DNA of 64,000 nucleotides from an uncultured bacterium. Its GTDB lineage: Bacteria > Patescibacteriota > Minisyncoccia > Moranbacterales > GWC2-37-73. Below are positions 12,294 through 52,284 of the stretch, piece after piece; positions within the stretch are counted from its first letter, which is position 1, and each line of letters begins with the position of its first letter. The notes beneath the pieces are model-generated. The model was not told the origin of the DNA, ran no database searches, and saw nothing but the letters and a program-made list of their open reading frames with translations. The DNA is taken from positions 819-64,818 of the forward strand of contig CAILTR010000055.1 of NCBI GenBank assembly GCA_903837175.1. Reading direction: 5' to 3'. The position numbers and the translations under genes were made by a program.

Positions 12294-13019
12294 ATGTCAT
12301 TGATTGTTGTTCAAAATTTAAGTAAGACTTACGAAACCGAAGGCGTGAAAACGCCGGTTTTGCATGAGGTTACTTTCGAAATTAAAAAAGGCGAGTTTAT
12401 TTCCATTATGGGTCCATCAGGCTCTGGCAAATCAACCCTAATGCAAATTTTAGGGATGCTGGATCGGCCGACGGAGGGAACCTATTTATTGGAAGGAAAA
12501 AATATTACCCAATATTCTGATGATGAAATGGCAAAAATTCGCAATAAGAAAATTGGTTTTGTTTTTCAGTCCTTTAATTTATTGCCGAGAACTTCGGTGT
12601 ATGAAAATACGGAGCTGCCCCTGCTTTATGATGAAGATCATTTGGAGATGAATAACGAGAAAAAAATAACCAAAGCTTTAGCGGCCGTTGATATGAGTCA
12701 TCGCACAAACTATCTTTCTAACCAACTTTCTGGTGGAGAAAAACAACGGGTAGCGATTGCGCGCGCTTTAGTTAATAATCCAGAAGTTATTTTTGCTGAT
12801 GAGCCAACGGGGAACTTGGATTCAAAGTCTGGCTTGGCGGTAATGCGAATTCTCCAACAACTCAATGACGTTGGGCACACGGTAATTTTAGTCACACATG
12901 AAACTTATACCGCTCGTCACGCCAAACGCATCCTAAATATGCTCGATGGCCGCATTGTTTCCGACGAACTCGTCAAAGACCGCTTGATTGCTGATGGAGA
13001 AGGAGAACTCCTAAAATAA
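12294..13019 (+). CDS. ABC transporter ATP-binding protein (MacB/LolD-like).
   Basis: Walker A 'GPSGSGKST', signature '[15 protein letters not shown]' and Walker B '[11 protein letters not shown]'. The start was chosen at '[11 protein letters not shown]'. Confidence 0.9.
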
Positions 13020-13029
13020 ATTAAAAAGC

Positions 13030-13140
13030 AAAAATCAAAATGGAAAATGACATTGTAAAATGTAAAATTTTTCATGCATTTGATAATTTTTAATTTTAAT
13101 TTGTCATTTTGATTTTTGAGATTTACATTTTACATTTCAT
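13030..13140 (+). repeat. Composite inverted-repeat element of modules X (tgtcattttgattttt) and Y (tttacattttacattt). This 'empty' copy lacks an internal gene.
   Basis: The left arm 'aaaaatcaaaatggaaaatgaca ttgtaaaatgtaaaa' and right arm 'tgtcattttgatttttgagatttacattttacattt' are related to the ends flanking the four-helix-bundle pseudogene at 14415-14886 and to 52285-52320. Confidence 0.5.
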
Positions 13141-14414: not shown

Positions 14415-14458
14415 ATTAAAATTAAAAAATCAAAATGGAAAATGACAAAGCAAAATTT
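14415..14458 (+). repeat. Left inverted-repeat end (rc of module X) of the four-helix-bundle cassette.
   Basis: 'aaaaatcaaaatggaaaatgaca'. Its reverse complement occurs at 14851-14868. Confidence 0.5.
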
Positions 14459-14806
14459 AAAAATGAATTCAAAAAAAGATTATATAATTTTGTGTTACGT
14501 CTGATAAGATTTATTGATACTCTCCCAAAAAGTTCCGTAAATGACATTATGGGTAAGCAATTATTAAGAAGTGGGACAAGTATCTTAGCAAATTATGTAG
14601 AAGCTAATTCGGCAAGTTCGAAAAAAGATTTTATAAACTTTTTTACCCATTCCTTGAAATCATCAAATGAATCAAAAGTTTAGTTGACTTTACTGAGAGA
14701 CACGCATAAAGGAGAAAAGCAAGAAATAGTGTGGTTGCTAGCAGAGTTAATCGAAATTTCTAATATTATAGCCAGTAGTATCCTTACGCTAAAAGGTAAG
14801 AAATAA
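14435..14806 (+). pseudogene. Four-helix-bundle protein (23S rRNA intervening-sequence protein family) interrupted by an in-frame TAG at 14681-14683.
   Basis: '...LANYVEANSASSKKDFINFFTHSLKSSNESKV*LTLLRDTHKGEKQEIVWLLAELIEISNIIASSILTLKGKK' aligns end-to-end with the intact paralog at 29709-30059. The stop replaces the conserved Gln of 'ETQL' (CAG to TAG). Confidence 0.55.
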
Positions 14807-14846: not shown

Positions 14847-14886
14847 AAATTGTCATTTTCCATTTTGAGATTTACATTTTTCATTT
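14847..14886 (+). repeat. Right inverted-repeat end (modules X-ga-Y) of the four-helix-bundle cassette. It directly abuts the start of the second permease gene.
   Basis: 'tgtcattttccattttgagatttacatttttcattt'. Confidence 0.5.
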
Positions 14887-14889
14887 ATT

Positions 14890-16146
14890 ATGTTTAAACG
14901 CCTTCTCTTATCAATAAAACTTGCCTCCCGCAGTTTGACCATTAACATTGGTCGAACGGTTTTGACATTGGTGGGAATTATTATTGGAATTTTATCCGTA
15001 ATTGTCGTCACTTCCAGTGGTCAAGGTGTTAAGGAATATATTTTAGGCCAAGTCAATAGTTTTGGGACGGATATTATTCAGGTTGAAACGAAAGTTCCAG
15101 CTACGGGCAAAACTTCTTCGGCTAACGCGACAGGTCAAGCGCAAGGGATTCAAATTACAACGCTAAAAGTTTCCGACGGGGAAATGCTGAAAAAAATTCC
15201 AAATATTGATAAAGCCGCCCCAGCTTCGATTGGCCAAGAGTTGGCTACTTATCAAGCTACGAATAAACGGGCGATGATTTTTGGGGTTGGCGCTGATTAT
15301 CCTTTTGTGGATACAGCTACCAAGGTCGCGCAGGGGGCTTTTTATTCGCAGGGCGATGATAATGGCCTAGCGCAAGTAGTTGTGATTGGGAGCGACGTTA
15401 AAGACGCCCTCTTTGGCGATCAAGAAGCCATCGGCAAGGAAATTAAAATTAAAAGTTTAAATTTCCGCGTGGTTGGCGTGGCTGAAAAAAGAGGGGCGGT
15501 AACTTTTTTAAATTATGATGAATTTATTTTTATGCCGGTGCAAACGCTCCAAAAGAAAATCTTGGGGATCGATTATGTCCGCATGATTACGCTAAAAGTT
15601 AAAGATGCGAATTTAATTGACGTGACGGCCGCTGACGTTTCCGACGCGCTTAAGCGTCAGCATAAAACGCCCAGGGAGGAACAAGAGGATTTTTCCGTTT
15701 CAACCATCCAAGAAGCCCAGAAAATAATTGGTGACGTTTTTGGAACGATTAATATTTTGCTTTTGGCGCTTACTTCAATTTCCTTGGTCGTCGGTGGGGT
15801 GGGGATTATGAACGTCATGTATGTGGCGGTCGTCGAACGAACTTTTGAAATTGGTTTGCGCAAAGCGGTCGGCGCCACCGCCTCAGATATTCGCAACCAA
15901 TTTTTATTTGAAGCGATTTTTATAACGCTAATTGGCGGCTTGATTGGGATTTTACTGGGCTACTTAATTTCTTTCGGACTTTCTTATTTAATTAAGAGTC
16001 TTGGTTTTAACTTAAATTTCCCCGTGACGCTAAGCGCAATTTTCCTTGCCACCAGCTTTTCGATGGCTACCGGCATTATCTTTGGCTACTATCCCGCCTA
16101 CAAAGCCTCTAAGCTCTCGCCCATGGAAGCGCTCAGAAAAGAATAA
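14890..16146 (+). CDS. Second ABC transporter permease, FtsX/MacB-type.
   Basis: Same architecture as 13167..14408, with 'FEIGLRKAVGA'. Confidence 0.85.
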   Translation: MFKRLLLSIKLASRSLTINIGRTVLTLVGIIIGILSVIVVTSSGQGVKEYILGQVNSFGTDIIQVETKVPATGKTSSANATGQAQGIQITTLKVSDGEMLKKIPNIDKAAPASIGQELATYQATNKRAMIFGVGADYPFVDTATKVAQGAFYSQGDDNGLAQVVVIGSDVKDALFGDQEAIGKEIKIKSLNFRVVGVAEKRGAVTFLNYDEFIFMPVQTLQKKILGIDYVRMITLKVKDANLIDVTAADVSDALKRQHKTPREEQEDFSVSTIQEAQKIIGDVFGTINILLLALTSISLVVGGVGIMNVMYVAVVERTFEIGLRKAVGATASDIRNQFLFEAIFITLIGGLIGILLGYLISFGLSYLIKSLGFNLNFPVTLSAIFLATSFSMATGIIFGYYPAYKASKLSPMEALRKE

Positions 16147-21760: not shown

Positions 21761-22399
21761 TTAAGAACTTTTTAGCACTTTCCAATAACCACCCTTGTCG
21801 GGGCCGATTCTTTTTAAGAGTCCAGCTTTCTTTAGGTTGGTTATATTTTTTTCAATAGCTCGACTGGAGATACCAATTTTATCAGCGATGTCCTCAGCGC
21901 TTAATTTACCATCTTTTTGCAATAAATGCAATATTTTCTCCGAACTTTTCTCCGAACTTTTCTCCGAACTTTTCTCCGAAACGTTTTCTCCAAAAATATT
22001 TACATCAATCCCGCCCGAGACTTCTTTTAGCTCAGGCCTTGGAAGCCCATAAGCCGTAATTTCATCAATAGCTCTTTTTACTCCGCTGCCATATTTTTCA
22101 ATTAGTCCAACCTCTTTGAAAATTTCAGCAATTTTTAAATTTCTAGGGGTAGACTTTTCCGAGCCAGCGTATAAATCCTCGATTGAGATATTAGTTGGTA
22201 ATTTTCCAATGTTCCAGATAACGAGTTTGTTTTGGTAAACCCTAAATTGCGAATGAACTCCACTTCGGTAGTCACGATGGATGATAGCATTTACGATAAA
22301 CTCTCTCACTGCAGAGAGGGGATATTGCCAGCGTTCATCGCGCTCGGGCTTACCAGTGATGATGTATTCCTTGGTTATGTGGGACATGACAAAATCCAT
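21761..22399 (-). CDS. HATPase_c_4 (RecG C-terminal-like) plus winged-HTH putative transcriptional regulator. It is a Schlafen/AlbA_2-type regulator lacking the N-terminal AlbA_2 domain.
   Basis: 'REFIVNAIIHRDY', 'RNLKIAEIFKEVGLIEKYGSGVKR' and C-terminal HTH 'LSAEDIADKIGISSRAIEKNITNLKKAGLLKRIG'. The linker (SEKS)n is encoded by a 12-nt tandem repeat. Confidence 0.6.
   Translation of the reverse strand: MDFVMSHITKEYIITGKPERDERWQYPLSAVREFIVNAIIHRDYRSGVHSQFRVYQNKLVIWNIGKLPTNISIEDLYAGSEKSTPRNLKIAEIFKEVGLIEKYGSGVKRAIDEITAYGLPRPELKEVSGGIDVNIFGENVSEKSSEKSSEKSSEKILHLLQKDGKLSAEDIADKIGISSRAIEKNITNLKKAGLLKRIGPDKGGYWKVLKSS
21935..21981 (-). repeat. In-frame 12-nt tandem repeat (ttttctccgaac x~4) encoding the (SEKS)n linker.
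   Basis: Direct reading. Confidence 0.8.
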
Positions 22400-22494
22400 T
22401 ACCAGGTCAACCTCGCTCAGTAAATATATTGTGACGGAGCTAAGCTCCGAATCGGAGCTTAGCTCCGGGATAGCAAACTACAACTAATTAAGTT

Positions 22495-23288: not shown

Positions 23289-23499
23289 TAGTTAACAATA
23301 GCTTAAATATTAGGAAAAGCAATACCGTGGACCATGGGGCACAGGGCCTTAAAATTTCGAATTTCCAATTCTGAATTTTGAATCAATTTTGAATTATTTA
23401 ATGTTTCAAACATTGGGTCATTAGAATTTTATTCAAAATTCGAAATTCAAAATTCAAAATTATTTCCGTATTCTAAAATCTACCCTTTACTCTTTATCA

Positions 23500-24788: not shown

Positions 24789-25097
24789 CTAAAGTCCGAG
24801 TTCGCCGTCTGGGGTGTCTGTGCCCAGGGCTTTATCGGTGTCTTGAAGCGCTTGGTCGATACCGCTGACTTCGCTGTCGATAGCTTGCTTATTATCGGCT
24901 GGTAGGGGCGCTAATTCAGTAGGCGCAGGTGCCGTAGCCTCTGGGGTGGCTGGCTGAGTCGCTGGGGTAGCTATTGGCGTAGTAGTAATTGGACTTGTCG
25001 TTGTTGATGGTTTAGTGTTAAAGCCACAACCAGAAAAAAGTAAAACTGCTATCGGAAGCATCGAAAGTGCTAAGATACGTTTGAAAGAGGTTTGCAT
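24789..25097 (-). CDS. Thr/Pro-rich lipoprotein.
   Basis: The lipobox is 'LLFSGC' and the mature region is low-complexity TTTP-rich. Confidence 0.5.
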   Translation of the reverse strand: MQTSFKRILALSMLPIAVLLFSGCGFNTKPSTTTSPITTTPIATPATQPATPEATAPAPTELAPLPADNKQAIDSEVSGIDQALQDTDKALGTDTPDGELGL

Positions 25098-25132: not shown

Positions 25133-25822
25133 TTATAAGGTTGGTTCTGTTGCAGGGGTAGTAGTTGTTTTTTGGGTAGCTAGAAATTCTCGGATTGTTT
25201 TTAAGTCAGCTTTAATCGTCTTTTCAAAAAAGCTTTTAATCTCTTGGCGGTCAGCCCTGATCAAATCTGGAACTTTGCGGGCAGTTTCTAATTTAGCTTT
25301 AAATTCTCCTTCGGCTTTTCCACAAGCGAAACTCTGGGTTTCTTCCAAACTTGAGATAAAGGTGGCTTGGTCGGTTTTAAGTTTAGCAATTTTAGCTTGC
25401 AGGGTGGCAAGGTCAGTCTCGAATTGTTTAGTATCAGCACCAGCCGTTTTAAGTTTGGTTAGTAGTCTGGTTAATCTCGTTTGCATATTGCCATAGACGT
25501 TTTCAATCATTTGGCCATTGTTTTCATAACGATTGATTCGGTTAGCAATTTTGGTTTCAAGGTTCTTGCATTTTTCTGCAGTAAGTTTTTCTTTGCTATC
25601 TTTAAATTCTAGACGTTGTTGGGCTAACTCATTTTTTCCGTTTCGAATATCTTCTTTTAAGCCAAGACGTTCATTTCTAAGTTGTTGTCGTTGAGTCTGA
25701 AGCTCACTGCGCGTTTGCGGATTGGGGCTATCAGTGCTTGTTTCGGGAGTGCTCCCGAACGCTGGGATAGTGGGTACTGTTAAGGCAAAAGCCATTGACA
25801 AGAGAACGAGTTTTTTGTTCAT
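25133..25822 (-). CDS. Secreted coiled-coil protein.
   Basis: A signal peptide is followed by Gln/Lys/Glu-rich heptad sequence. Confidence 0.45.
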   Translation of the reverse strand: MNKKLVLLSMAFALTVPTIPAFGSTPETSTDSPNPQTRSELQTQRQQLRNERLGLKEDIRNGKNELAQQRLEFKDSKEKLTAEKCKNLETKIANRINRYENNGQMIENVYGNMQTRLTRLLTKLKTAGADTKQFETDLATLQAKIAKLKTDQATFISSLEETQSFACGKAEGEFKAKLETARKVPDLIRADRQEIKSFFEKTIKADLKTIREFLATQKTTTTPATEPTL

Positions 25823-25930
25823 TTGTTTGTTTATTAAAATTAATTATTCTAAAAATATTTTTTTAAAACTTCTTTAATTATATCGCAGCTCTGCTAAATC
25901 TCCAAGAGCTTAAAAGTTGCTTGGTTCTCA

Positions 25931-26058
25931 AATGCTTGTATGATTACATGCTTACATGTTTATATGTTTATATGTTTATATGATTATATGATTGTATGTT
26001 TATATGCTTACATGCTTACATGTTTATATGATTATATGCTTACATGTTTATATGATTA
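25931..26058 (+). repeat. 16 tandem copies of the octamer ATGNTTRY (atgtttat / atgattat / atgcttac). It sits in the divergent promoter region.
   Basis: Direct reading. Every unit starts with ATG. Confidence 0.85.
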
Positions 26059-26126
26059 TGCCTTTACTGGGCCTGACTTTATGCTATACTTTAAATACGT
26101 TAACTAAAGCTAAATAATTTCAACTT

Positions 26127-27068
26127 ATGCAATCAATTCTTATTGTTGTTCCAGCTTATAACGAGGAAAAAAACATTCCCTTGCTTTATAGTGAGCTTAA
26201 AAAAGTTTTTGTGCCACTGTGCGACAATTACTCCTTTGAAATTTTATTTATTAACGATGGCAGTAAGGACAATACTCTAGGAGAAATTGAAAAATTAGCG
26301 GAAATTGATGAACACGTTAAATATCTGGATTTTTCGAGGAACTTTGGTAAAGAAGTTGCCAGCACGGCAGGTCTGAATAATTGCCAAGCCGATGCTTGTC
26401 TGATGATTGATAGCGACCTCCAACATCCCGTGGAGCTAATTCCGCAGTTTCTTGAAAAATGGCAAGCGGGAGCAGAGGTGGTGGTGGGAATTCGAAAGAA
26501 AAATAAAAGCGATTCAATCGTTAAAAGGTTAGGTTCAGCTTTTTTTTATAAAGTTATTAATTGCATTTCAGAAGTGGAGGTTGTGCCAAATGCAACCGAC
26601 TTTCGACTCTTGGATAAAAAAGTGGTGGAGGAATTTAACCGTTTTTCTGAGACAAATCGGATGACGCGGGCTTTAATAGATTGGCTAGGCTTTAGGCGAG
26701 AGTATATTTATTTTGAGGCGAATGAACGAGTTAATGGTACGGCTAGCTATAGCTTTTGGAAGCTTTTTGGTTTGGCGATGAATAGTTTTGTTTCATTAAG
26801 CTTAATGCCCCTCAAGCTGGCTGGTTATCTTGGCGCTGTGATTACCTTAATTGCTGGGGTTTCTGGCGCTTATATTTTACTGGGAAAATATTTTCTGCAT
26901 TTTACCTTGGCCTCAACTTTTTCAGACTCCGAAAATTTAGCAATCTTAATTTTGTTTTTAGTTGGAATCATGCTGACTTCAATTGGGCTAATTTCTTTTT
27001 ACGTTGCCAATATCCATACAGAAGTTATCAGGAGGCCAATGTATGTAACTAGGAAAAGAGAGTTGTAG
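26127..27068 (+). CDS. GT2 polyprenyl-phosphate sugar transferase (GtrB/ArnC-like) with C-terminal TM helices.
   Basis: 'IVVPAYNEEKNI', 'DSDLQHP' and two C-terminal TM helices. Confidence 0.8.
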   Translation: MQSILIVVPAYNEEKNIPLLYSELKKVFVPLCDNYSFEILFINDGSKDNTLGEIEKLAEIDEHVKYLDFSRNFGKEVASTAGLNNCQADACLMIDSDLQHPVELIPQFLEKWQAGAEVVVGIRKKNKSDSIVKRLGSAFFYKVINCISEVEVVPNATDFRLLDKKVVEEFNRFSETNRMTRALIDWLGFRREYIYFEANERVNGTASYSFWKLFGLAMNSFVSLSLMPLKLAGYLGAVITLIAGVSGAYILLGKYFLHFTLASTFSDSENLAILILFLVGIMLTSIGLISFYVANIHTEVIRRPMYVTRKREL

Positions 27069-27137: not shown

Positions 27138-28076
27138 ATGAATGAAAATCCTTTTATGTCAGTAGTTGTGCCTTTGTATGATGAGGAAGGTAATGTAAAG
27201 GAACTACATCGTCGCATTTTAGAGGCTTGTCAGGAAATTGGAAAGCCTTTCGAAATTATTTTCGTTGATGATGGTTCTAAGGATAAAACCGTTGAAAACT
27301 GCAAAGGTCTTTCGCCGCTTACGCTGATTAAATTTCGCAAGAATTTTGGCCAAACCGCTTCTTTCGACGCCGGGATTAAACAAGCCAAAGGTGAAATTAT
27401 TGTGATGATGGATGGGGATTTACAAAATGATCCTGCCGATATTAAGCTATTACTGGCTAAAATCGAAGAAGGTTTTGACGTGGTGGCTGGTTGGCGTTGG
27501 AAGCGAAAAGATAGCCTAAGTAAAAAAATCTTTTCCCGTACAGCTAATCTTTTGCGCAAGATTTTAATTCAAGACAAAATTCACGATAGTGGTTGTTCGC
27601 TAAAAGCCTATAAGCGAAGTTGTTTTGAAGACATGGATCTTTTTGGCGAAATGCATCGTTTTATCCCAGCACTTTTGGAGTTACAAGGTTATAGCGTTGG
27701 GGAAGTTAAGGTTAGCCACCATCCTCGAACTTCTGGGGTGACAAAATATAATTGGAAGCGCGCGATGAAGGGTTTTGTGGATATGCTTTCAATTTGGTTT
27801 TGGCGAAAATATTCGAACCGACCACTCCACCTTTTCGGGGGAACTGGCATTATTTTCTCAATTATCGGTTTTGGAATTTTGGCTTGGATGGCAATTGAAA
27901 AGATCTTTTTTGGAGCTAAGCTTATGAATACTAACTGGCCACTGATTGGAATTTTCTTCGTTTTAGTCGGCATCCAGCTTTTTATCTTTGGCCTGCTAGC
28001 TGATATCTTGCTTAAGGTTTACTATAGAAATCAAAAGCGGATGAATTATAATATTAAAGAGGTGGTTAAGGTCTAG
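27138..28076 (+). CDS. Second GtrB/ArnC-like GT2 with C-terminal TM helices.
   Basis: 'VVVPLYDEEGNV', 'FVDDGSKDKT', 'DGDLQNDP' and two C-terminal TM helices. Confidence 0.8.
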   Translation: MNENPFMSVVVPLYDEEGNVKELHRRILEACQEIGKPFEIIFVDDGSKDKTVENCKGLSPLTLIKFRKNFGQTASFDAGIKQAKGEIIVMMDGDLQNDPADIKLLLAKIEEGFDVVAGWRWKRKDSLSKKIFSRTANLLRKILIQDKIHDSGCSLKAYKRSCFEDMDLFGEMHRFIPALLELQGYSVGEVKVSHHPRTSGVTKYNWKRAMKGFVDMLSIWFWRKYSNRPLHLFGGTGIIFSIIGFGILAWMAIEKIFFGAKLMNTNWPLIGIFFVLVGIQLFIFGLLADILLKVYYRNQKRMNYNIKEVVKV

Positions 28077-29708: not shown

Positions 29709-30059
29709 ATGGCAAAATTTGAGAGCTTTGAAGATATGCTTGTTTGGCAAAAATCAAGAATTCTTGTTTTGGACAGCTATAAAGCATTTAATAATAGTAG
29801 AGACTTTTCTTTCAGGGATCAAATTTGTAGGGCTGCGGTTTCAGTCATGAACAATATAGCTGAAGGATATGAGAGAAAGGGAAATAAGGAATTTGTGAAA
29901 TTTTTGTATATAGCAAAGGGTTCTTGCGCCGAAGTTAGATCGATGCTTTATTTGGCGGTCGATTTGAAGTATATAGATAAGACTGAATTCGAAAAGACAT
30001 ATAATCAGACTCTTGAAATTTCAAAAATGTTATCGAGCTTAATAAAAAAGATTTGTTAG
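29709..30059 (+). CDS. Four-helix-bundle protein (23S rRNA IVS protein family), intact.
   Basis: 'FEDMLVWQKSRILVLDSY...AAVSVMNNIAEGYERKGNKEFVKFLYIAKGSCAEVRSMLYLAVDL' matches the canonical family pattern. Confidence 0.8.
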   Translation: MAKFESFEDMLVWQKSRILVLDSYKAFNNSRDFSFRDQICRAAVSVMNNIAEGYERKGNKEFVKFLYIAKGSCAEVRSMLYLAVDLKYIDKTEFEKTYNQTLEISKMLSSLIKKIC

Positions 30060-32600: not shown

Positions 32601-32822
32601 ATGAGAAATGAAATTTATTCAAATGGTCATAGGTTTTTAACGCAACAGTTAAAGAAGGCACGAGAAAATTCTGGCTTTAGTCAGAAAGATGTTGCTGAGC
32701 TTTTAACTAAAACTCAATCTTATGTTTCCAAGATTGAGGCGGGGCAACGTCGTATCGATGTAATTCAATTACAAGAATTTGCAAAAATTTATAGAAAGAA
32801 GATTAATTTTTTTATTAAGTAA
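32601..32822 (+). CDS. XRE-family HTH protein. It is a controller (C)-like regulator of the R-M cassette.
   Basis: 'GFSQKDVAELLTKTQSYVSKIEAGQRRIDVIQLQEFAKIY'. It is 73 aa and sits immediately upstream of the small nuclease candidate. Confidence 0.65.
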   Translation: MRNEIYSNGHRFLTQQLKKARENSGFSQKDVAELLTKTQSYVSKIEAGQRRIDVIQLQEFAKIYRKKINFFIK

Positions 32823-32826
32823 ATTT

Positions 32827-33273
32827 ATGTGGGCAAAAAATCTAACTAAGATTAATGATGGAATTTTTAGGACTATTAATGGTAATTCCGATGAAATGAT
32901 AGGCGTCGGAAGGTGCATGAAGGCAGGTTTTCCATGTTCTCGGGCAGATGTAACTAACGGGAGATATGATGCCATTATTGATGTGGGTAATAACAAGTTA
33001 CTAAGAGTTCAAATAAAAGGAACATCTGGTGGAAGCGTTAGTTTTACGGGTGGAGGAAGAAGTGGAAAGCAAATCAGTAGAACAGTTAAACAACGGACAT
33101 ATCGATATTCTCCGGATGATTGTGATTTAATTCTGGTCGTAGATGGAAGAAGTGGGGAATGTTATATTATTCCAATTGAAGATATTCAACAAATGAGTAA
33201 TTCAAAGTCACTCGATAAACTGAGTAAATATAAAGAAAATTGGGATATTCTGAAAACGATGGCAGGAATCTAA
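32827..33273 (+). CDS. Candidate small restriction endonuclease (PD-(D/E)xK-like). Alternatively, a toxin partner of the XRE protein.
   Basis: 148 aa, translationally coupled to the XRE gene. The possible motif is 'YDAIIDV...LLRVQIKG' (D...QxK). It converges on, and overlaps by 4 nt, the methyltransferase gene. Confidence 0.35.
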   Translation: MWAKNLTKINDGIFRTINGNSDEMIGVGRCMKAGFPCSRADVTNGRYDAIIDVGNNKLLRVQIKGTSGGSVSFTGGGRSGKQISRTVKQRTYRYSPDDCDLILVVDGRSGECYIIPIEDIQQMSNSKSLDKLSKYKENWDILKTMAGI

Positions 33274-34835
33274 TTTAGAGCTTTTTTTATTTCTCTTGCA
33301 ACTGCCTCTAGAACAGTTACGGTTACGGAGTTTCCAGCTTGCTTGTAAAGCGCGGAGTCAGCTAAATTTGGAAGCTCAAAATCTCTCGGGAAACCTTGTA
33401 GCCTGAAACATTCAATCGGCGTTAGTTTTCTGATCCCATGCCTATCTTTTATAATTGGAACATTATGTCCTCCCATCCCCATGTTGGCAGTGAGCGTTGG
33501 GCAGACACCTTTTTTATTTTCTCTAACATATTGTCTTCGCCATTGGTAAACCTTACCTTCTTGCGTAACAAAATCTTTAAGTTTTTCGAAAAGAGGCTTA
33601 CCATTATAATAATATTTTTCAGGCACTTTTTGCTCAAGTAGATCAGTAACTTTTATTGATAATTTTTGTGGTTCGGGAAACTTAAATTTGTCTGTGTAAT
33701 TTTTATTTTTAAATCCTATGATATATATCCTTTCGCGATTTTGAGGAATATTTCCATACTCCATACTATTTAAAACCTTAGTTTTTACATGATAACCCAA
33801 GTCTTCCAGGGTTTTGATAATTATTTTAAAAGTTTTTCCTCCGTCATGTCCTTTTAGGTTTTTTACATTTTCCAGTAGAAACCCTGCCGGATTGCGAGCT
33901 TCTAGAATTCTAGCAACATCGAAAAATAAATTACCGCGGTCTTTTTCATCATTAAACCCCTTGCGGTATCCAGCTATAGAGAAAGCTTGGCAGGGAAATC
34001 CTCCCAAGAGAAAGTCGAATTCCGGAAGATCTTCAATGCCAATTTTGCGGATATCCTCTACGACAAGTTTTGATTTTTTGAAATTTAAATCGTAAGTAGT
34101 CTTACAATTTTTTTCAAAGTCATTCGCAAAGACAGTTTCAAAGCCAGCTTTTTCAAAACCAAGTCTAATACCCCCGACGCCAGCAAATAAGTCCAGGGTT
34201 CGGAAAAGTTTTTGATCTGTTTTGCTGCTGTTTTCAAGATTTCTTTTTATCTCAACAACTACGCCTCTAATTTCAACCTCCTTTCTATAAATGGGAAGCA
34301 TTGTTTGGTTAGCTGGTTGCAATCTAAATCGATTTTTTTCTCGATAAATCTTTTTTAGAGTAGCTTCATTATCATCAATTATCGCAACGACAGTTTGTCC
34401 ATTTTCGGCGACGGATTGTTTTTTAATAACGACAATGTCACCATCAAAGATTCCTTCATCAATCATGCTATTTCCCTGAACTTGTAGTGCATAATAATTG
34501 CCAGCTTTATTTACGGCGCTTGTCGCAATCATCACAGTTTCTCCTCTAGTTTCGATAGCTTCAATGGGTTGCCCAGCGGCGATGGTTCCGATTAACGGTA
34601 TCTTAATGAGATTGTAGGGGTTCCTTTTTTTAAGTTCGATACCTCTAGCAGAACTGCCATTTTTTTCTATAAATCCTTTTTTTTCTAAAGTTTCAATATG
34701 TTGATGCACGGTTGAAATAGCAGAAAGTTTGAAATGTTTTCTGATTTCTTCAATAGTTGGAGAAAAAGTTTTTTTATTAATAAACAAGGTTATAAAATCT
34801 AGGATTTGTTTTTGTTTTTTTGTTAGGGTTGGCAT
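33270..34835 (-). CDS. LexA repressor (wHTH plus S24 peptidase) fused in-frame to a C5 cytosine-specific DNA methyltransferase.
   Basis: The N-terminal ~205 aa align along LexA: 'LTKKQKQILDFI', 'SSARGIEL', the 'IAAGQP' Ala-Gly cleavage site, the nucleophile Ser in 'VQGNSM', the general-base Lys in 'VVIKKQ', and 'VVAIIDD'. The C-terminal ~315 aa carry Dcm motifs I 'DLFAGVGG', IV 'GGFPCQAFSIAG' and 'ENVKNL'. There is no stop or start between the two parts. Confidence 0.8.
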   Translation of the reverse strand: MPTLTKKQKQILDFITLFINKKTFSPTIEEIRKHFKLSAISTVHQHIETLEKKGFIEKNGSSARGIELKKRNPYNLIKIPLIGTIAAGQPIEAIETRGETVMIATSAVNKAGNYYALQVQGNSMIDEGIFDGDIVVIKKQSVAENGQTVVAIIDDNEATLKKIYREKNRFRLQPANQTMLPIYRKEVEIRGVVVEIKRNLENSSKTDQKLFRTLDLFAGVGGIRLGFEKAGFETVFANDFEKNCKTTYDLNFKKSKLVVEDIRKIGIEDLPEFDFLLGGFPCQAFSIAGYRKGFNDEKDRGNLFFDVARILEARNPAGFLLENVKNLKGHDGGKTFKIIIKTLEDLGYHVKTKVLNSMEYGNIPQNRERIYIIGFKNKNYTDKFKFPEPQKLSIKVTDLLEQKVPEKYYYNGKPLFEKLKDFVTQEGKVYQWRRQYVRENKKGVCPTLTANMGMGGHNVPIIKDRHGIRKLTPIECFRLQGFPRDFELPNLADSALYKQAGNSVTVTVLEAVAREIKKALN

Positions 34836-35085: not shown

Positions 35086-37194
35086 ATGCTACAAGAAAAA
35101 TTAGCTTCTTTTTTCGTTAAAATAAGCCAAAATGAAAAAGTATTGGTCAGATTTTTGCTGGGCATTTCAATTGTGGTTTATTTTGTTTTTGGTTTTTATC
35201 ATCTAGCAAATTTTATTTCAGCAGATGAGCATTTTTGGTTGCCTAATTCTGGTAGTGAGCGCATCCAAGATTATTGGAAGGCAATTTCTAAGCAGGACTG
35301 GAAAGATACGAAGATTAATGATAAGCCTGGAATAACTTTGGCATATACCTCGGGTATTGCCATGCTTTTTGAAAAAAATCCCGGGGGTCAATTGATTTCA
35401 AATGGTGGCACTGTCAAATTATTTAATCCTGAAATAACCAAACGGATTAATTTTCTTTATCGGCTTCCAATCCTTTTGATCAGTGGCTTTTTCTCCTTGT
35501 TCTTTTTCTGGATTATCAGAAAAATTACAAACAATCCATGGATGGCGTTGTTTTCGGCCATGGGAATTTTACTTTCTCCAGTTTTGTTGGGGATGTCCCA
35601 AATTGTAAATCCAGATTCTCTTTTTTGGCTTTTCGCTTCAGCTTCGATGTTTTCTTTCTTTGCTTTTTTACAACATGGTCAGAAAAAGCTAGCGATTTGG
35701 AGTTCAATTTTCCTGGGGTTGGGGTTGGCGAGTAAATACGTGAGTGTGATTTTGTTTCCATTTTTCTTTTTTATGATGGTTGTTTATTATTTCTTTGAGT
35801 TTTTTAGGTGGGATAATCGACAAAAAGATTTTGCAAAAATGGTAATTAGAAATAGTTTTTCTTATTTGGGGGTTTTATTTGGTGGAATGCTTATTTTTGC
35901 AATTCTGATGCCAGCTTCTTTTGTGGAGCCAAAAGTTTTCTACGAAGGTACAATTGGCTTTCCTGGGATGCAACCTATCTTTTGGACAGTGATGATTATT
36001 AATGCGATTTTAATTTTGGATGCTCGCTTCTTTGTTAGTGGCGGTTTTGTCTGGCTAATAAAAAGACTAAAGCCACTCGAGGAAATCCTGCCAAAAATAG
36101 TCTATGCTATTTTATTTGGAACGGTTTTCTTTGTGCTCACAAATTGGCTTTCGAGAAATAGTATTATTGATTTATCTGGCATCCCTTTTAACTTAAAGAG
36201 AAGTGATCTTTTCAGCGAGCTTCCTTATTTTAAAAGATTTATTATGGAGTTTGTTCCGTTGACGTTTGCGTTGACGCCAGTAGCCTTGTTTATGCTCATG
36301 TTTGCTTGGTTTAGGGGCTTTTTAAATCAAACAAAGATAAAAACATTCTCTTTCTTGTTGTCGATATTCTTCTTGATATTTATAGTGGCAGTTATCGAGC
36401 AGGGGCTGCTGATTACTGTTCGATATAGTATTATTTTGTTTCCACTCTCAATGATTATTGGCTCTATTTCCTTGGTGGAGTTCTTTTCTGACATTCGAGA
36501 AAAAAAACTTGATGCTAGGGGGCTCAAGGTTTTTGCATTTGGCTTTTCGCTAGTGCTTATCTTGTTTACTAGCTTGATAATTCAACAGTATTTTCTTAAT
36601 AGCATTTATAAGAATGCTTTCGTCGATAGAGTATATCGCAGTTGGTATGGTATATTGTTTATTTTAGTTGCTACAATAGCGCTTGTTTTTACTTTGCGTA
36701 AAGTTGCTATTAGGAAAAAAATTGCTGACGTCTCAATGGTTTGGATTTTTTCTTTGGTGGCTTTGCTTAATATTGTTAGTATTTCCTTGATAGCACCTTT
36801 TTATTTCAGTTATACTAATAATCTTTTGCCAAAAAATTATATTATTAGTGGTGCTTGGGGCTATGGGGGATATGAGGCTGCGCAATATATGAACAGCTTG
36901 CCAGAGGCAAAAAATCTAACTTTATGGGTGGATGCTTATGGGGTTTGTGAATTTTTTGTTGGTAAATGCATCCATAAAGCTAAAGTGGATACTCAAAAAT
37001 ATCCAATTGACTATTATTTCCAATCCTTGCAATCGACAATTGCTATTAATTTTCCCCATGCGATGGAAAAGAATTCCGTTTGGAGATTAGAGATTGATGG
37101 ACGAGAAAAAAGTTTCTTGAAAATCAGGCAATCAAAACCTCTCATTACTGGGCAATCGGTTCAGGGCGATGCTTCTTCGGTAGATGATAACTAA
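35086..37194 (+). CDS. GT-C fold integral-membrane glycosyltransferase (PMT/ArnT-like, GT39/GT83-type).
   Basis: 'FISADEHFW' DE-loop after TM1 and at least 12 TM helices. The conserved C-terminal 'ISGAWGYGGYEAAQYMNSLP...GVCEFFVGKC' is shared with the next gene. Confidence 0.6.
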   Translation: MLQEKLASFFVKISQNEKVLVRFLLGISIVVYFVFGFYHLANFISADEHFWLPNSGSERIQDYWKAISKQDWKDTKINDKPGITLAYTSGIAMLFEKNPGGQLISNGGTVKLFNPEITKRINFLYRLPILLISGFFSLFFFWIIRKITNNPWMALFSAMGILLSPVLLGMSQIVNPDSLFWLFASASMFSFFAFLQHGQKKLAIWSSIFLGLGLASKYVSVILFPFFFFMMVVYYFFEFFRWDNRQKDFAKMVIRNSFSYLGVLFGGMLIFAILMPASFVEPKVFYEGTIGFPGMQPIFWTVMIINAILILDARFFVSGGFVWLIKRLKPLEEILPKIVYAILFGTVFFVLTNWLSRNSIIDLSGIPFNLKRSDLFSELPYFKRFIMEFVPLTFALTPVALFMLMFAWFRGFLNQTKIKTFSFLLSIFFLIFIVAVIEQGLLITVRYSIILFPLSMIIGSISLVEFFSDIREKKLDARGLKVFAFGFSLVLILFTSLIIQQYFLNSIYKNAFVDRVYRSWYGILFILVATIALVFTLRKVAIRKKIADVSMVWIFSLVALLNIVSISLIAPFYFSYTNNLLPKNYIISGAWGYGGYEAAQYMNSLPEAKNLTLWVDAYGVCEFFVGKCIHKAKVDTQKYPIDYYFQSLQSTIAINFPHAMEKNSVWRLEIDGREKSFLKIRQSKPLITGQSVQGDASSVDDN

Positions 37195-37229
37195 GCTCTT
37201 AAAGTATGAGCTAAACAAGAACTAAAAAT

Positions 37230-39044
37230 ATGAATACTATTGCCTCATATCTGAAAAGACCAGCATTCTTACTAAGCATCCCCCTGCTTTTGTATTTCGT
37301 TTTTTCCGTTCATCATTTGACGAAATTTGAAACGGCGGATGAGCATTTTTGGTTTAATGATCCTGCTCATGACAGAATCCATCAATATTGGACTGCCGTT
37401 TCTCAGCATAATTGGATTGCAACTAGAATTAATGATAAACCAGGAATTTCTTTGGTTTTTATTTCAGGTGCGGGTCTTCTTTTTGAGAGAGCTATTTTAA
37501 ACGGAGGCCAAGTCAATGTTCAAAACGTTGAGCGGCTTAATTTTGTTTTTCGCTTTCCTCAGGTTTTTTTTACTGCGTTGGCCGCAATCTATTTTTTTTG
37601 GGCCCTACGGAGAATAACAAAAAAGGATTTCCTTGCGCTTTTAGCTGTTAGTTTTATCTTGCTCAGTCCTATTTTAATTGGGATTTCCCAGATTGTTAAT
37701 CCTGATTCAATGCTTTGGATTTTTTCATTTGCAACTGTGTTGGCGTTCTTTCTTTATCTGCAAGAAGAGAAAAAAATTCATTTGTTTTCAGCTGCAATCT
37801 TTTTTGGAATGGCACTTCTGAGCAAATATGCCGCACTTATGCTAGTGCCATTTTTTCTAGCAATGATCGGTTTCTTTTTGATTTTTGAAGGAACTAACTG
37901 GGATAGGGTTACACTTAAAAAGAAAATTTTTAAATTCTCAATAGCCTATTTTAGTCTTATTTTTGGAGGTTTCTTGTTGTTCTCAATCCTGATGCCTGCC
38001 GTATTAGTAGATCCCATGCTTGCCTATAAGAGCACGATAGGGTTTAAGGGAATGCAATATATTTTTTGGCCATTAATTTTTCTGAATTCTCTACTGCTGC
38101 TTGATTCTGCCTTGAGTGAGAGTCGGTTTGCAGTTTTTTTAATAAAAAAGAGTAATAAGCTCAAAAGAGTATTGCCAAAAATTCTGTATGTATTTTTAAG
38201 TGGCATGTTTTTGCTTGTTTTGCTGAATTGGTCAGTCGGCAAAAATTTTATGAATGTTTTGAGTGTAGCCTTTGATTCAGCGGAAGGATCGAAATATCAG
38301 CATGCTTCCTTGTTCGATCAATTAATGCTCCAATTTAAGCCGATTGTTTTTTCGCTCACCCCACTTGTCCTTGCTAGTTTGCTTTTCCTTTGGCTGAAAG
38401 CGATTTTTAGAAAAATTGAAAATGAGCTGTTAGTGTTCTTATTCTCATTGTTTGTTTTTATTTTTTATGTGGCGGTGATGAGACAGGGGCTGCTTGTTAC
38501 TATTCGCTATGCTATAATTTTATACCCAGTTTTATTTGCGCTGGCAGCATTTGGAATAGCAGAGTTATTTTTATCTGTGAAGAAGTTTACTTTCCCAAAG
38601 ACTATAATTCTTATGGTTATTGTTGGAGTTTCAATAGTTAGCCTTTGGCAAAGCAAGCCGTTTTATTTTAATTATACAAATAGCTTGATGCCAAAAAATA
38701 GCGTCATCACTGGTGCCTGGGGTTATGGTGGTTATGAAGCTGCTCAATATCTCAATAGTCTGCCTGGCGCTGAAAACCTAGTTGTTTGGTCTGATTATTA
38801 TGGCGTTTGTCCATTTTTTGTTGGTAAATGTATGAAAGCTTATGCGCTAAGCGATTATGCCAAGAAAAATTCTTTGGAATCAATTAATTATGCGGTGGCA
38901 ACGCGCAGAGGCAAAAAGCAAAATATAAATATGTGGAAAAAATTTGATCATTATGATATTAAAAAAGCTTGGGCCTTATTTATTGACGGACGGCAGGCAA
39001 ACTTTGTAGAAATTTACAAGAATGGGGGACCCGTTGAAGATTAG
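37230..39044 (+). CDS. GT-C fold glycosyltransferase, tandem paralog of 35086..37194.
   Basis: 'FETADEHFWF' and 'ITGAWGYGGYEAAQYLNSLPGAENL...GVCPFFVGKC'. Confidence 0.6.
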   Translation: MNTIASYLKRPAFLLSIPLLLYFVFSVHHLTKFETADEHFWFNDPAHDRIHQYWTAVSQHNWIATRINDKPGISLVFISGAGLLFERAILNGGQVNVQNVERLNFVFRFPQVFFTALAAIYFFWALRRITKKDFLALLAVSFILLSPILIGISQIVNPDSMLWIFSFATVLAFFLYLQEEKKIHLFSAAIFFGMALLSKYAALMLVPFFLAMIGFFLIFEGTNWDRVTLKKKIFKFSIAYFSLIFGGFLLFSILMPAVLVDPMLAYKSTIGFKGMQYIFWPLIFLNSLLLLDSALSESRFAVFLIKKSNKLKRVLPKILYVFLSGMFLLVLLNWSVGKNFMNVLSVAFDSAEGSKYQHASLFDQLMLQFKPIVFSLTPLVLASLLFLWLKAIFRKIENELLVFLFSLFVFIFYVAVMRQGLLVTIRYAIILYPVLFALAAFGIAELFLSVKKFTFPKTIILMVIVGVSIVSLWQSKPFYFNYTNSLMPKNSVITGAWGYGGYEAAQYLNSLPGAENLVVWSDYYGVCPFFVGKCMKAYALSDYAKKNSLESINYAVATRRGKKQNINMWKKFDHYDIKKAWALFIDGRQANFVEIYKNGGPVED

Positions 39045-39096
39045 GGGGCGTAATGAATTTATAGAATGAATAATTATTTTTTGTGACTAAAAATAT

Positions 39097-40659: not shown

Positions 40660-40688
40660 GGTTTTTAGAGATTTACTAAAAATGAACA

Positions 40689-52047: not shown

Positions 52048-52278
52048 CTATTTCTTTTTAAGAATTAACTCAGGGTTGACACACTGTAAATCACACTTTG
52101 CGTTCTTAGCGCCGTTTTCAAGCATCTTTTTTGAGCAATCGCTAAGGGTTTGTTGACAACGGCTGGTGCTTTTATCAAAATAATTTAAATTTACCTCATA
52201 GCCAAAAAGGGGAAGAGCTAGATAAATAATTACCGTGATACCGGCAACCCAGACGATAAATTTTAAGAAATGAAACAT
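52048..52278 (-). CDS. Small single-TM protein with a four-Cys C-terminus.
   Basis: It is translationally adjacent to the GT2 gene. The start was set at the second Met, with the repeat element immediately upstream. Confidence 0.35.
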   Translation of the reverse strand: MFHFLKFIVWVAGITVIIYLALPLFGYEVNLNYFDKSTSRCQQTLSDCSKKMLENGAKNAKCDLQCVNPELILKKK

Positions 52279-52284
52279 AAAAAA

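What the first reader, a model, noticed from the sequence alone, without database searches (positions are those of the whole stretch)
25931..26058. Sixteen tandem copies of an ATG-initiated octamer (ATGNTTRY) in a divergent promoter region
A 128-nt perfect-register array, 'atgcttgt atgattac atgcttac atgtttat atgtttat atgtttat atgattat ...', lies between the divergent coiled-coil gene (start 25822) and the GtrB-like GT2 gene (start 26127). Every unit begins with ATG.

The 8-nt period is not a multiple of 3. It is also not helical-repeat length.

Arrays of this kind are candidates for:
- a protein-binding iteron array,
- a slippage-prone phase-variation promoter spacer controlling a glycosylation gene, or
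- a lineage-specific promoter architecture.
Basis: seen in the sequence. Interest (0 to 1): 0.55.

Follow-up and report, generated by a model that had tools for sequence, protein, structure and literature searches.

The report
Variable octamer array beside a promoter
Sixteen head-to-tail copies of an 8-base unit sit directly against the promoter of a cell-surface glycosylation operon in an uncultivated Patescibacteria (Moranbacteria-like) genome, and the copy number differs between close relatives (0, about 4, 7, 11, 16), so this is a fast-evolving repeat that may tune expression, though no effect on expression has been shown.

Summary
The array is real.

**Position.** It lies between two divergent promoters. 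It ends 3 nt before the -35 of a promoter (CTTTACTG-N13-TGnTATACT) that is conserved down to 71% protein identity. It keeps exact 8-nt register with that -35.

**Relatives.** Orthologous arrays occur at the same site in three lineages about 12% diverged in DNA.
- Copy numbers are 16 (window), 11 (L285), and 16 or 7 (L167/L168).
- L167 and L168 differ by 0.3% in flanking DNA and by one 72-nt indel in the array.
- A fourth lineage keeps about 4 decayed units.
- Syntenic relatives at 80-84% have no array but the same promoter.

**Sequence pattern.** Six of eight unit positions are at least 93% conserved across 43 units. Positions 4 and 8 vary freely.

**Context.** The genome is full of 7-9-nt intergenic arrays (10% of intergenic bases), mostly as hairpins.

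**Verdict.** This is a slippage-driven minisatellite (VNTR) attached to a promoter, possibly a quantitative expression tuner. ON/OFF phase variation, protein binding and iteron function are unproven. Permuted octamers form arrays just as often in viral contigs, so the ATG start is an arbitrary phase.

The parts
25932..26059 (.). Octamer array: 16 gap-free units fitting ATGNTTRY, 78% A+T. Units 11-13 and 14-16 are an exact 24-nt duplication.
26060..26067 (+). 'Unit 17' (GCCTTTAC). This is the diverged terminal unit, in exact 8-nt register with the array, and it carries the -35 core TTTAC.
   Evidence: The register is also kept in L003, L167, L168, L169, L170 and L285.
26063..26090 (+). Conserved sigma-70-type promoter of the GT2 operon: -35 TTTACT (26063-26068), 16-nt spacer, TG (26082-26083), -10 TATACT (26085-26090).
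   Evidence: Consensus scan. CTTTACT and T.TG.TATACT are invariant in 11 sequences down to 71% GT2 identity. Alignment with L087.
26127..27068 (+). GT2a, a polyprenyl-phosphate glycosyltransferase (PgfS/ArnC/GtrB-like, 313 aa). It is the first gene downstream of the array.
27138..28076 (+). GT2b, a second polyprenyl-phosphate glycosyltransferase paralogue on the same strand.
25877..25904 (-). Predicted divergent promoter of the coiled-coil gene: -35 TGGAGA (25904-25899) and -10 TATAAT (25882-25877). The sequence is conserved in the array-bearing lineages only.
25902..25924 (.). Imperfect palindrome CCAAGAGCTTAAAAGTTGCTTGG between the divergent -35 and the array. It is kept in L167 and L285.
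   Evidence: Read. It appears as a small stem. Not tested further.
25133..25822 (-). Divergent gene for a secreted coiled-coil protein (229 aa, N-terminal signal peptide). It is followed by a Thr/Pro-rich lipoprotein gene at 24789-25097 (-).

Best explanation
The array is a minisatellite (VNTR) of an 8-bp unit. It grew out of, and stays in 8-nt register with, the DNA just upstream of the -35 element of an older, conserved sigma-70-type promoter. That promoter drives a polyprenyl-phosphate glycosyltransferase operon in a Patescibacteria (Moranbacteria-like) genome.

**Shown:**
- The array is resized by whole-unit and multi-unit duplications and deletions, through replication slippage or unequal recombination between units.
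- It has persisted at the same site in at least three lineages that are about 12% diverged in DNA, with different copy numbers (7, 11, 16, 16).
- It is absent from slightly more distant syntenic relatives that keep the same promoter.

**Inferred:**
- Because it lies entirely upstream of both divergent -35 hexamers, it cannot switch a promoter by changing -35/-10 spacing.
- What it can do is act as a variable-length, A+T-rich upstream tract. Each unit moves the divergent promoter and the small palindrome 8 bp further away and about 86 degrees around the helix.
- The most likely functional consequence, if there is one, is heritable quantitative tuning between strains of the glycosylation operon and/or the divergent surface-protein operon. 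An ON/OFF switch is less likely.
- It is the largest member of a genome-wide population of short (7-9 nt) intergenic arrays, so a general propensity of this genome to make such arrays probably created it.
For: **Array and significance:**

**Position against a conserved promoter:**. Exact register with the -35 in six independent alleles: (L285).

**Copy-number differences:**
- The window and L003 have 16 units and differ by 1 substitution.
- L285 has 11 units.
- L167, L169 and L170 have 16 units, and L168 has 7.
- L167 and L168 differ by 18 substitutions in 5.9 kb, one 1-nt indel, and a single 72-nt indel with breakpoints inside units.
- The junction of the short allele creates k-mers that are absent from the long allele, so it is not an assembly-graph collapse.

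**Recent block duplications:** 24 nt exact in the window, and 43 nt exact at a 56-nt offset in L167.

**Not needed for the promoter:** L087, L176 and L178 are syntenic at 80-84% identity and have the same promoter but no array. L172 and L174 keep about 4 decayed units.

**Genome-wide propensity:** arrays of period 6-12 with at least 3 copies cover 10.2% of intergenic bases and 0.5% of coding bases.

**The motif is not special:** three permuted octamers give 21-32 viral-contig stretches, against 22 for the real motif.
Against: - Six of eight unit positions are at least 93% conserved in 43 units from three lineages whose third codon positions differ by 27-32%. Positions 4 and 8 are highly polymorphic in all three. 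Core positions differ by 5% between the window and L167, against about 10% for the flanking intergenic DNA. This looks like sequence constraint. A purely neutral repeat does not obviously predict it, though my rough estimates put the chance probability only near 0.05-0.1.
- Two lineages independently show 16 units.
- No expression data exist, so any tuning effect is inferred.
- All alleles come from short-read metagenome assemblies.
Confidence: 0.55

Rival explanations
1. The array is an operator or landing pad for a DNA-binding protein that binds cooperatively, one dimer per 8-bp unit. This is how ribbon-helix-helix repressors bind contiguous 7-8-bp repeats next to promoters. The bound protein would cover or contact the -35 and couple the two divergent promoters.
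For: - Conservation is position-specific: ATG.TTA. is kept and positions 4 and 8 are free, across three lineages.
- The array abuts the -35 and is in register with it.
- It has been retained over about 30% third-codon-position divergence.
- From my own knowledge, not tested here: the 8-bp spacing equals that of MetJ met boxes and is close to the 7-bp heptads of the omega repressor.
Against: - No ribbon-helix-helix or other candidate regulator gene was found next to the locus or in the larger intergenic gaps.
- Copy number varies from 7 to 16, and the array is missing from syntenic relatives with the same promoter.
- The same genome carries many arrays with unrelated units, which cannot each have their own protein.
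- The motif is no more array-prone than permuted controls in viral contigs.
Confidence: 0.2
2. The array is a classical contingency locus. Rapid, reversible gain and loss of units within a population would switch the glycosylation operon or the surface-protein operon ON and OFF.
For: - Copy number is polymorphic among near-identical strains.
- The neighbouring genes encode surface glycosylation enzymes and surface proteins.
- Several assemblies break in or beside the array.
- Repeat tracts upstream of promoters are known to control expression. The H. influenzae hmw 7-bp repeats are an example (PMC2424069).
Against: - The units are imperfect (84% matches, longest exact run 3 units).
- The array is outside the -35/-10 spacer and outside any ORF.
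- Identical 16-unit alleles were recovered from three samples whose strains are 99.87-99.89% identical. The window lineage shows the same 16 units in two samples.
- The observed rate is about one array event per 0.3% sequence divergence. That is far slower than typical contingency loci.
Confidence: 0.1
3. The array is a stranded, amplified arm of one of the genome's tandem-repeat hairpin cassettes. It would then belong to the class of repeats found just upstream of start codons and act at the RNA level.
For: - Related units (ATGTTAT, ATGTTCT, ATGTTAC) form the gene-proximal arms of hairpins or solo arrays directly upstream of the GalE and UDP-glucose dehydrogenase genes, in the window and in L176.
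- Hairpin arrays are common in the window and fold significantly, with z from -2.3 to -3.75.
Against: - The window holds no inverted partner for this array.
- The array lies upstream of the conserved promoter, so it is probably not transcribed with the GT2 operon.
- As single-stranded DNA it has no significant structure (z -0.87).
- Its period is 8, not 7.
Confidence: 0.08
4. The array is a plasmid- or phage-type set of iterons, a replication origin, or a partition site.
For: It is a direct-repeat array in an A+T-rich intergenic region. An unrelated group of viral contigs carries ATGATTAT arrays around a conserved hairpin.
Against: - The unit is 8 nt rather than the 17-22 nt of iterons.
- No rep, dnaA or par genes were found among the 24 ORFs I scanned (16266-39044).
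- Cumulative GC skew rises monotonically across the window.
- The context is a chromosomal cell-envelope gene cluster.
- The array is dispensable in syntenic relatives.
Confidence: 0.02
5. The array encodes a repetitive peptide or upstream ORF (ORF 25940-26107, 55 aa).
For: One frame stays open across most of the array.
Against: - An 8-nt period rotates through all three frames.
- The two other frames in the window, and two of the three frames in L167 and L168, contain stops.
- The 56-nt duplication in L167 is not a multiple of 3.
- The ORF would start upstream of the conserved promoter.
Confidence: 0.01

Closest known systems
7-bp tandem repeats in the hmw1A/hmw2A promoter regions of nontypeable Haemophilus influenzae
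   Same: Both are head-to-tail arrays of a 7-8-bp unit upstream of cell-surface genes. In the four isolates typed, copy number ranged from 9 to 28, and more repeats generally meant less mRNA (PMC2424069). This is the best working model for what the array could do.
   Different: - To my knowledge the hmw units are perfect, and the tract's effect on transcript level has been measured.
- Here the units are imperfect, with two free positions.
- Here the tract lies upstream of the -35 and in register with it.
- No expression data exist here.
- The observed turnover here is slower.
Intergenic heptamer direct repeats of Beggiatoaceae, Cyanobacteria and Bacteroidetes (TAACTGA; the Nostoc TTTTGAA/TTCAAAA repeats; cyanobacterial STRR)
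   Same: These are genome-wide populations of short direct repeats in intergenic DNA, mostly close to start codons or promoters, with up to 43 copies and unknown function (PMC4679880; bioRxiv 10.1101/2022.06.06.494920). The window shows the same landscape: 10% of intergenic bases are in such arrays, and several arrays abut start codons. It even contains TTCAAAA-type heptamers.
   Different: - The phylum is different (Patescibacteria/CPR). I found no report of such repeats there.
- The unit here is an octamer.
- This array lies upstream of a promoter rather than at the ribosome-binding position.
- Most arrays in this genome are inverted pairs that form hairpins.
Repeat tracts upstream of the -35 that modulate promoters: Neisseria meningitidis nadA (TAAA)n and Mycoplasma gallisepticum vlhA (GAA)n (from my own knowledge, not checked here)
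   Same: The repeat tract lies upstream of the core promoter, so copy number changes the distance and phase of upstream DNA rather than the -35/-10 spacing. The target genes encode surface molecules.
   Different: Those tracts have 3-4-nt perfect units with documented high-frequency switching. Here the units are 8 nt and imperfect, and switching has not been demonstrated.
Ribbon-helix-helix operator arrays: MetJ 8-bp met boxes, and the 7-bp heptads of the omega repressor of pSM19035 (from my own knowledge, not checked here)
   Same: These are contiguous direct repeats of 7-8 bp placed at or just upstream of a -35, with one protein dimer per unit.
   Different: - The sequences are unrelated.
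- To my knowledge MetJ uses 2-5 boxes and omega uses 7-10 heptads, in fixed numbers.
- No cognate protein has been identified here.
- Copy number is variable here.
Plasmid iterons
   Same: Both are direct repeats in A+T-rich intergenic DNA.
   Different: Iterons are about 17-22 bp, are spaced about two helical turns apart, and lie next to a rep gene and origin. None of these conditions holds here.

Membership tests
VNTR / minisatellite (variable-number tandem repeat) | A head-to-tail array of a short unit, far beyond chance | tested here: met
   16 units with no indels, TRF scores 137 and 165, and 0.00 expected in shuffles.
VNTR / minisatellite (variable-number tandem repeat) | Copy number differs between closely related genomes at the orthologous site, in whole units | tested here: met
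   16 (window, L003), 11 (L285), 16 (L167, L169, L170), 7 (L168), about 4 (L172, L174) and 0 (L087, L176, L178). The L167/L168 difference is one 72-nt indel, equal to 9 units.
Simple-sequence contingency locus (phase variation) | The tract is placed where a unit change alters expression: inside an ORF, between -35 and -10, or at a defined regulatory distance | tested here: inconclusive
   The tract is not in an ORF and not in the -35/-10 spacer. It lies directly upstream of the -35, between divergent promoters. An effect of upstream distance or phase is possible but untested.
Simple-sequence contingency locus (phase variation) | A perfect or near-perfect tract that supports high-frequency slippage | tested here: not met
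   There are six unit variants and 84% matches. The longest exact run is 3 units, and the longest exact self-match is 24 nt.
Simple-sequence contingency locus (phase variation) | Copy-number heterogeneity within one population | not testable with these tools
   Only assembled consensus contigs are available. Identical alleles occur in 3 samples. Assembly breaks in or beside the array are only a hint.
Plasmid/phage iterons or origin | Units of about 17-22 bp, an adjacent rep/dnaA gene, and origin signatures | tested here: not met
   The unit is 8 bp. The neighbours are glycosyltransferase and surface-protein genes. GC skew is monotonic.
Ribbon-helix-helix-type operator array | Contiguous 7-8-bp repeats at a promoter | tested here: met
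   The period is 8 bp, and the array ends 3 nt before the -35 and is in register with it.
Ribbon-helix-helix-type operator array | A cognate DNA-binding protein that recognises the unit | not testable with these tools
   No candidate gene was found near the locus or in the large intergenic gaps. Only 64 kb of the genome is available.
Intergenic heptamer-repeat class (Beggiatoaceae/Cyanobacteria/Bacteroidetes) | Many short direct-repeat arrays confined to intergenic DNA across the genome | tested here: met
   10.2% of intergenic bases against 0.5% of coding bases are in arrays of period 6-12 with at least 3 copies.
Intergenic heptamer-repeat class (Beggiatoaceae/Cyanobacteria/Bacteroidetes) | The array lies within a few nucleotides upstream of a start codon, in forward orientation | tested here: not met
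   This array ends 67 nt before the start codon and lies upstream of the conserved promoter. Other arrays in the window do abut start codons.

The most novel reading that the evidence does not exclude
The octamer array is under selection as a copy-number-tunable cis-regulatory module. A protein that reads ATG.TTA. every 8 bp, or the length and phase of the tract itself, would set the output of two divergent promoters controlling surface glycosylation and surface proteins. That would be the first contingency-like locus described in a CPR/Patescibacteria bacterium. It would also be the visible tip of a genome-wide, fast-turnover system of 7-9-nt arrays, both direct arrays and hairpin cassettes carrying four-helix-bundle or GxxExxY ORFs. 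That system would be related to the unexplained heptamer repeats of cyanobacteria and Beggiatoaceae.
Probability: 0.2. Interest if true: 0.65.

Novelty: new variant of a known kind. Interest (0 to 1): 0.45.

Why it matters
CPR/Patescibacteria are thought to be mostly episymbionts with tiny genomes. How they regulate genes and how they vary their cell surface are almost unknown.

This locus places a repeat tract directly against a well-conserved promoter of a surface-glycosylation operon. The tract changes length between near-identical strains yet keeps a position-specific sequence pattern across species-level lineages. That makes it a concrete, testable candidate for heritable expression tuning in this group.

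The locus also supplies a phylogenetically footprinted sigma-70-type promoter for Moranbacteria-like genomes. In addition, the intergenic short-repeat landscape known from cyanobacteria and Beggiatoaceae turns out to extend to CPR genomes.

If the array is neutral, it is still a useful strain marker and a warning about assembly breaks at such sites.

Tried and rejected
- **Known RNA or tRNA.** Rfam (gathering thresholds) and ARAGORN found nothing in the window.
- **Structure.** The array as single-stranded DNA (z -0.87) and the whole intergenic region as RNA (z -1.63) are not significantly structured. The array alone as RNA gives z -2.37, which I attribute to G-U pairing between AUG and UAU.
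- **Inverted partner.** Sensitive blastn of the array against the window found no partner and no second copy. The individual unit 8-mers occur elsewhere only singly.
- **Coding.** Frames contain stops and the indels are not codon-sized.
- **Promoters inside the array.** The consensus scan found none.
- **Origin or iteron.** GC skew is monotonic, and no rep or par genes were found.
- **Local regulator.** ORFs in the larger intergenic gaps yielded only an XRE-type HTH belonging to a restriction-modification cluster.
- **Cyanobacterial origin.** I first guessed this from the heptamer repeats. It was rejected, because the relatives are Moranbacteria/Patescibacteria MAGs.
- **Is ATGNTTAY a special motif?** Runs of four units occur in 22 viral-contig stretches, against 31, 32 and 21 for three permuted octamers. 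It is not special.
- **Is the short L168 allele an assembly collapse?** No. It contains 17 21-mers that are absent from the long allele.
- **Earlier error corrected.** I first read the L167-to-L168 difference as needing several events. A global alignment shows that one 72-nt indel suffices.
- **Literature.** Searches for such repeats in Patescibacteria found nothing relevant.

Full report
**1. The observation**

The sequence between the two divergent genes contains 16 consecutive 8-nt units at 25932-26059. This is one base to the right of the coordinates I was given.
- Every unit fits ATGNTTRY and there are no indels.
- Positions 1, 2, 3, 5 and 6 never vary. Position 4 is T, C or A. Position 7 is A (G twice). 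Position 8 is T or C.
- TRF reports period 8 x 15.1 copies (score 137) and period 24 x 5.3 copies (score 165). These are the strongest tandem repeats in the 64-kb window.
- A three-unit pattern matches 14 times, all inside the array, against 0.00 expected from dinucleotide-preserving shuffles.
- The units are imperfect (six variants). The longest exact stretch is three ATGTTTAT units, plus an exact 24-nt duplication in which units 11-13 equal units 14-16.
- The 'ATG' start is only a choice of phase.

**2. Organism and neighbourhood**

The closest relatives of the downstream protein among species-representative genomes are Candidatus Moranbacteria/Patescibacteria MAGs, at 72% identity or less. 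Names in the protein database agree.

The window is a cell-envelope glycosylation region:
- two ArnC/GtrB/PgfS-like GT2 polyprenyl-phosphate glycosyltransferases (26127-27068 and 27138-28076);
- a UDP-glucose dehydrogenase, GalE, further GT2 and GT4 enzymes, PMT-family glycosyltransferases and a flippase-like protein.

The divergent operon encodes a secreted coiled-coil protein (25133-25822) and a small lipoprotein with a Thr/Pro-rich stretch (24789-25097). The window contains no Rfam family and no tRNA. Cumulative GC skew rises monotonically.

**3. Position relative to promoters**

A consensus scan predicts a promoter on the + strand: TTTACT (26063-26068), 16 nt, then TATACT (26085-26090) preceded by TG. 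It predicts a divergent promoter on the - strand: TGGAGA at 25904-25899 and TATAAT at 25882-25877.

The + promoter is phylogenetically footprinted. CTTTACT and T.TG.TATACT are invariant in 11 upstream regions from relatives down to 71% protein identity, while everything further upstream cannot be aligned.

The array ends 3 nt before this -35. Continuing the 8-nt register past the array, 'unit 17' is GCCTTTAC, so the -35 core TTTAC occupies unit positions 4-8. The promoter's -35 therefore behaves as the diverged terminal unit of the array. This suggests, by inference, that the array was seeded by slippage of the -35-proximal DNA.

The array lies upstream of both -35 elements. Copy number cannot change -35/-10 spacing, and the array is probably not transcribed.

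**4. Same-lineage contigs**

The identical GT2 protein occurs on contigs from other samples.
- One contig (L003) has 16 units with a single substitution in unit 6.
- In another sample, two contigs end and begin inside the array at the (ATGTTTAT)3 run.

**5. Relatives**

Protein searches and exact look-ups recovered syntenic loci at graded distances.

| Loci | Relation to the window | Array |
|---|---|---|
| L167, L169, L170 | GT2 94% identical, 86.6% nt identity | 16 units: GTGTTTAC ATGCTTAA ATGCTTAC ... ATGCCCAT |
| L168 | Same GT2 protein as L167, sister sample | 7 units |
| L285 | GT2 93% identical | 11 units |
| L172, L173, L174, L175 | GT2 93% identical; the divergent operon is deleted, and L172 carries an ISL3 transposase there | About 4 degenerate units, one base out of register |
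| L087, L176, L178 | GT2 84%, 80% and 81% identical | None, with the same gene order and the same promoter |

- The arrays in L167, L169, L170, L168 and L285 all sit at the same site, in register with the -35.
- L167 and L168 differ by 18 substitutions in 5.9 kb (0.3%), one 1-nt indel, and one 72-nt (9-unit) indel whose breakpoints fall between unit positions 4 and 5.
- The short allele contains junction k-mers that are absent from the long allele, so it is not a graph collapse.
- L167, L169 and L170 are 99.87-99.89% identical and carry identical arrays.
- L167 also shows a 43-nt exact self-match at a 56-nt offset, which marks a recent 7-unit duplication.

Taken together, the array arose within the clade of at least about 93% GT2 identity and has persisted there. 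It is resized by unit and block gains and losses, and the promoter does not need it.

The observed turnover is about one event per 0.3% divergence, with no change among strains that are 99.9% identical. That is fast relative to point substitution but much slower than classical contingency loci. This rate comparison is an inference from few alleles.

**6. A hint of constraint**

Between the window and L167, GT2 third codon positions differ by 32.5% and the intergenic flanks by about 10%.

Aligned unit by unit, the arrays differ at 5 of 96 core positions (5.2%) and at 16 of 32 positions 4 and 8 (50%).

Over 43 units from three lineages, positions 1, 2, 3, 5, 6 and 7 are 93-100% conserved. Position 4 is C17/T19/A7 and position 8 is T27/C12/A4.

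Concerted evolution explains similarity within an array. It does not by itself explain why the consensus is unchanged in three lineages, or why all frequent variants fall at the same two positions. My rough estimates put this at p of about 0.05-0.1 under neutrality, which is suggestive and not decisive. This is the main evidence for a sequence-specific function such as protein binding.

Two observations count against the motif being special:
- Four-unit runs of ATGNTTAY occur in 22 stretches of viral contigs.
- Three permuted octamers of the same composition give 31, 32 and 21 stretches.

**7. Genome context**

The array is the largest member of a population. Arrays of period 6-12 with at least 3 copies cover 10.2% of intergenic bases and 0.5% of coding bases.
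- Most of these arrays are inverted pairs that fold into long hairpins, with z from -2.3 to -3.75.
- Some hairpins are empty. Others enclose a small ORF: a four-helix-bundle/23S-IVS protein at 29709-30059, a pseudogene of the same family at 14435-14806, and, in L087, a GxxExxY protein at the position where the window has an empty hairpin.
- At one and the same spacer (GT2b to UDP-glucose dehydrogenase), four lineages each have a hairpin built from different units.
- Several arrays run right up to start codons.

The target array has no inverted partner and no significant structure as DNA.

This landscape resembles the intergenic heptamer repeats described in Beggiatoaceae, Cyanobacteria and Bacteroidetes (PMC4679880) and in Nostoc. 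Their function is still unknown. I found no report of them in Patescibacteria.

**8. Interpretation**

*Shown:* this is a VNTR of an 8-bp unit, attached in register to a conserved promoter. It is confined to a young clade, variable in copy number, and dispensable for the promoter.

*Inferred:* it forms and changes by slippage or unequal recombination. If it has an effect, that effect is quantitative, acting through the length and phase of the upstream DNA between the two divergent promoters. The best precedent is the 7-bp hmw promoter repeats of H. influenzae, where 9-28 copies correlate inversely with mRNA (PMC2424069).

*Rivals and my confidence in each:*

| Explanation | Confidence |
|---|---|
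| VNTR / upstream-spacer reading | 0.55 |
| Cooperative operator array with an 8-bp register, as for ribbon-helix-helix proteins | 0.2 |
| True ON/OFF contingency locus | 0.1 |
| Stranded arm of a hairpin cassette acting in RNA | 0.08 |
| Iteron, origin or partition site | 0.02 |
| Coding | 0.01 |

**9. Novelty and verdict**

This is not a member of the iteron family. It fails one defining feature of classical simple-sequence contingency loci, namely perfect tracts. Its position is untested in one respect: whether a change of upstream length affects expression. It does meet the definition of a VNTR.

I rate it a new variant of a known kind, a promoter-associated repeat tract. The new points are the phylum, the imperfect octamer with two free positions, the exact register with the -35, and persistence across species-level lineages. 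Interest is moderate (0.45).

**10. Caveats**

- All alleles are consensus sequences from short-read metagenome assemblies.
- Within-population heterogeneity could not be examined.
- Only 64 kb of the genome is available.
- The promoter assignments rest on consensus matching and conservation, not on mapped transcription start sites.

Noticed in passing
window 13018-13137, 14413-14474/14832-14895, 21684-21772/23506-23563, 23353-23461, 28065-28110/28230-28255, 29585-29628/30087-30123, 52268-52313/52365-52404; L012, L014, L087 5009-5470, L167 4877-4980, L176 4420-4508: Intergenic spacers are filled with inverted pairs of 7-9-nt tandem arrays that fold into long hairpins (z from -2.3 to -3.75). 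Some are empty. Others enclose a small ORF: the four-helix-bundle/23S-IVS protein TIGR02436 in the window, and a GxxExxY protein (TIGR04256) in L087. At the same spacer, different lineages carry hairpins built from different units. This looks like a fast-turnover cassette system. Several arrays abut start codons.
   Followed up: partly
window 33270-34835 (-), with 32779-33273 (+) and 32601-32822 (+): A single 521-aa ORF joins a full LexA (DNA-binding domain plus S24 peptidase) to a C-5 cytosine DNA methyltransferase. It lies next to a PD-(D/E)XK endonuclease and what looks by eye like a small XRE-type HTH ORF (not scanned). This is an unusual LexA-Dcm fusion inside what looks like a restriction-modification cluster.
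   Followed up: no
window 14435-14806: A four-helix-bundle (IVS-protein-like) gene is interrupted by an in-frame stop. It lies between two FtsX/MacB-like permease paralogues and is flanked by inverted arrays of the AAAATGGAAAATGACA type. Near-identical arm sequence recurs 37 kb away: 14855-14895 against 52273-52313, 95% complementary.
   Followed up: partly
L185, L187, L190, L192, L198, L199 (IMG/VR viral contigs): A group of related viral contigs shares a non-coding module. In it, (ATGATTAT)n ATGATTGT arrays of variable copy number flank a conserved hairpin (CTGGCGCTATGATTGCGCCAG in L185; variants in the others). This could be a phage operator or origin that uses an octamer similar to some units of the window array.
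   Followed up: no
L002 1-30 / L085 1-30; L003 / L086; L171 start; L286 end: At least five independent metagenome assemblies break inside this intergenic region. Two of the breaks are inside the array. One falls exactly at the (ATGTTTAT)3 run, with a 29-nt overlap between the two contigs. This could reflect allele heterogeneity or only low coverage of A+T-rich repeats.
   Followed up: partly
window 22438-22470 and 57054-57090; L087 about 1985-2030; L167 about 3800-3840: A small dispersed palindromic element of the form GGAG(C/G)YTARSCTCC ... GGAGSYTARSCTCC occurs in several spacers. It accounts for a roughly 100-nt insertion between GT2a and GT2b in L167 and L172 relative to the window.
   Followed up: no
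window 24789-25097 (-) with 35086-42317 (+): The small lipoprotein in the divergent operon has a lipobox (LLFSGC) and a Thr/Pro-rich stretch. At least two PMT-family glycosyltransferases (35086-37194 and 37230-39044; the two ORFs after them were not scanned) and polyprenyl-phosphate sugar synthases lie nearby. It is a plausible O-glycosylation substrate encoded next to the machinery.
   Followed up: no
window 21934-21991: A 12-nt tandem repeat (TTTTCTCCGAAC x 4.7 copies, 95% matches) lies inside the ORF 21761-22399. That ORF encodes only the C-terminal HATPase_c_4 plus HTH part of a regulator.
   Followed up: no
L172 2551-3783: In one 93% lineage an ISL3-family transposase sits between GalE and the GT2 promoter, where the coiled-coil/lipoprotein operon lies in the window. 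The same deletion is present without the transposase in L173 and, judging from the 204 nt of upstream DNA on those short contigs, also in L174 and L175. Its right-hand end falls at the remnant of the octamer array.
   Followed up: partly
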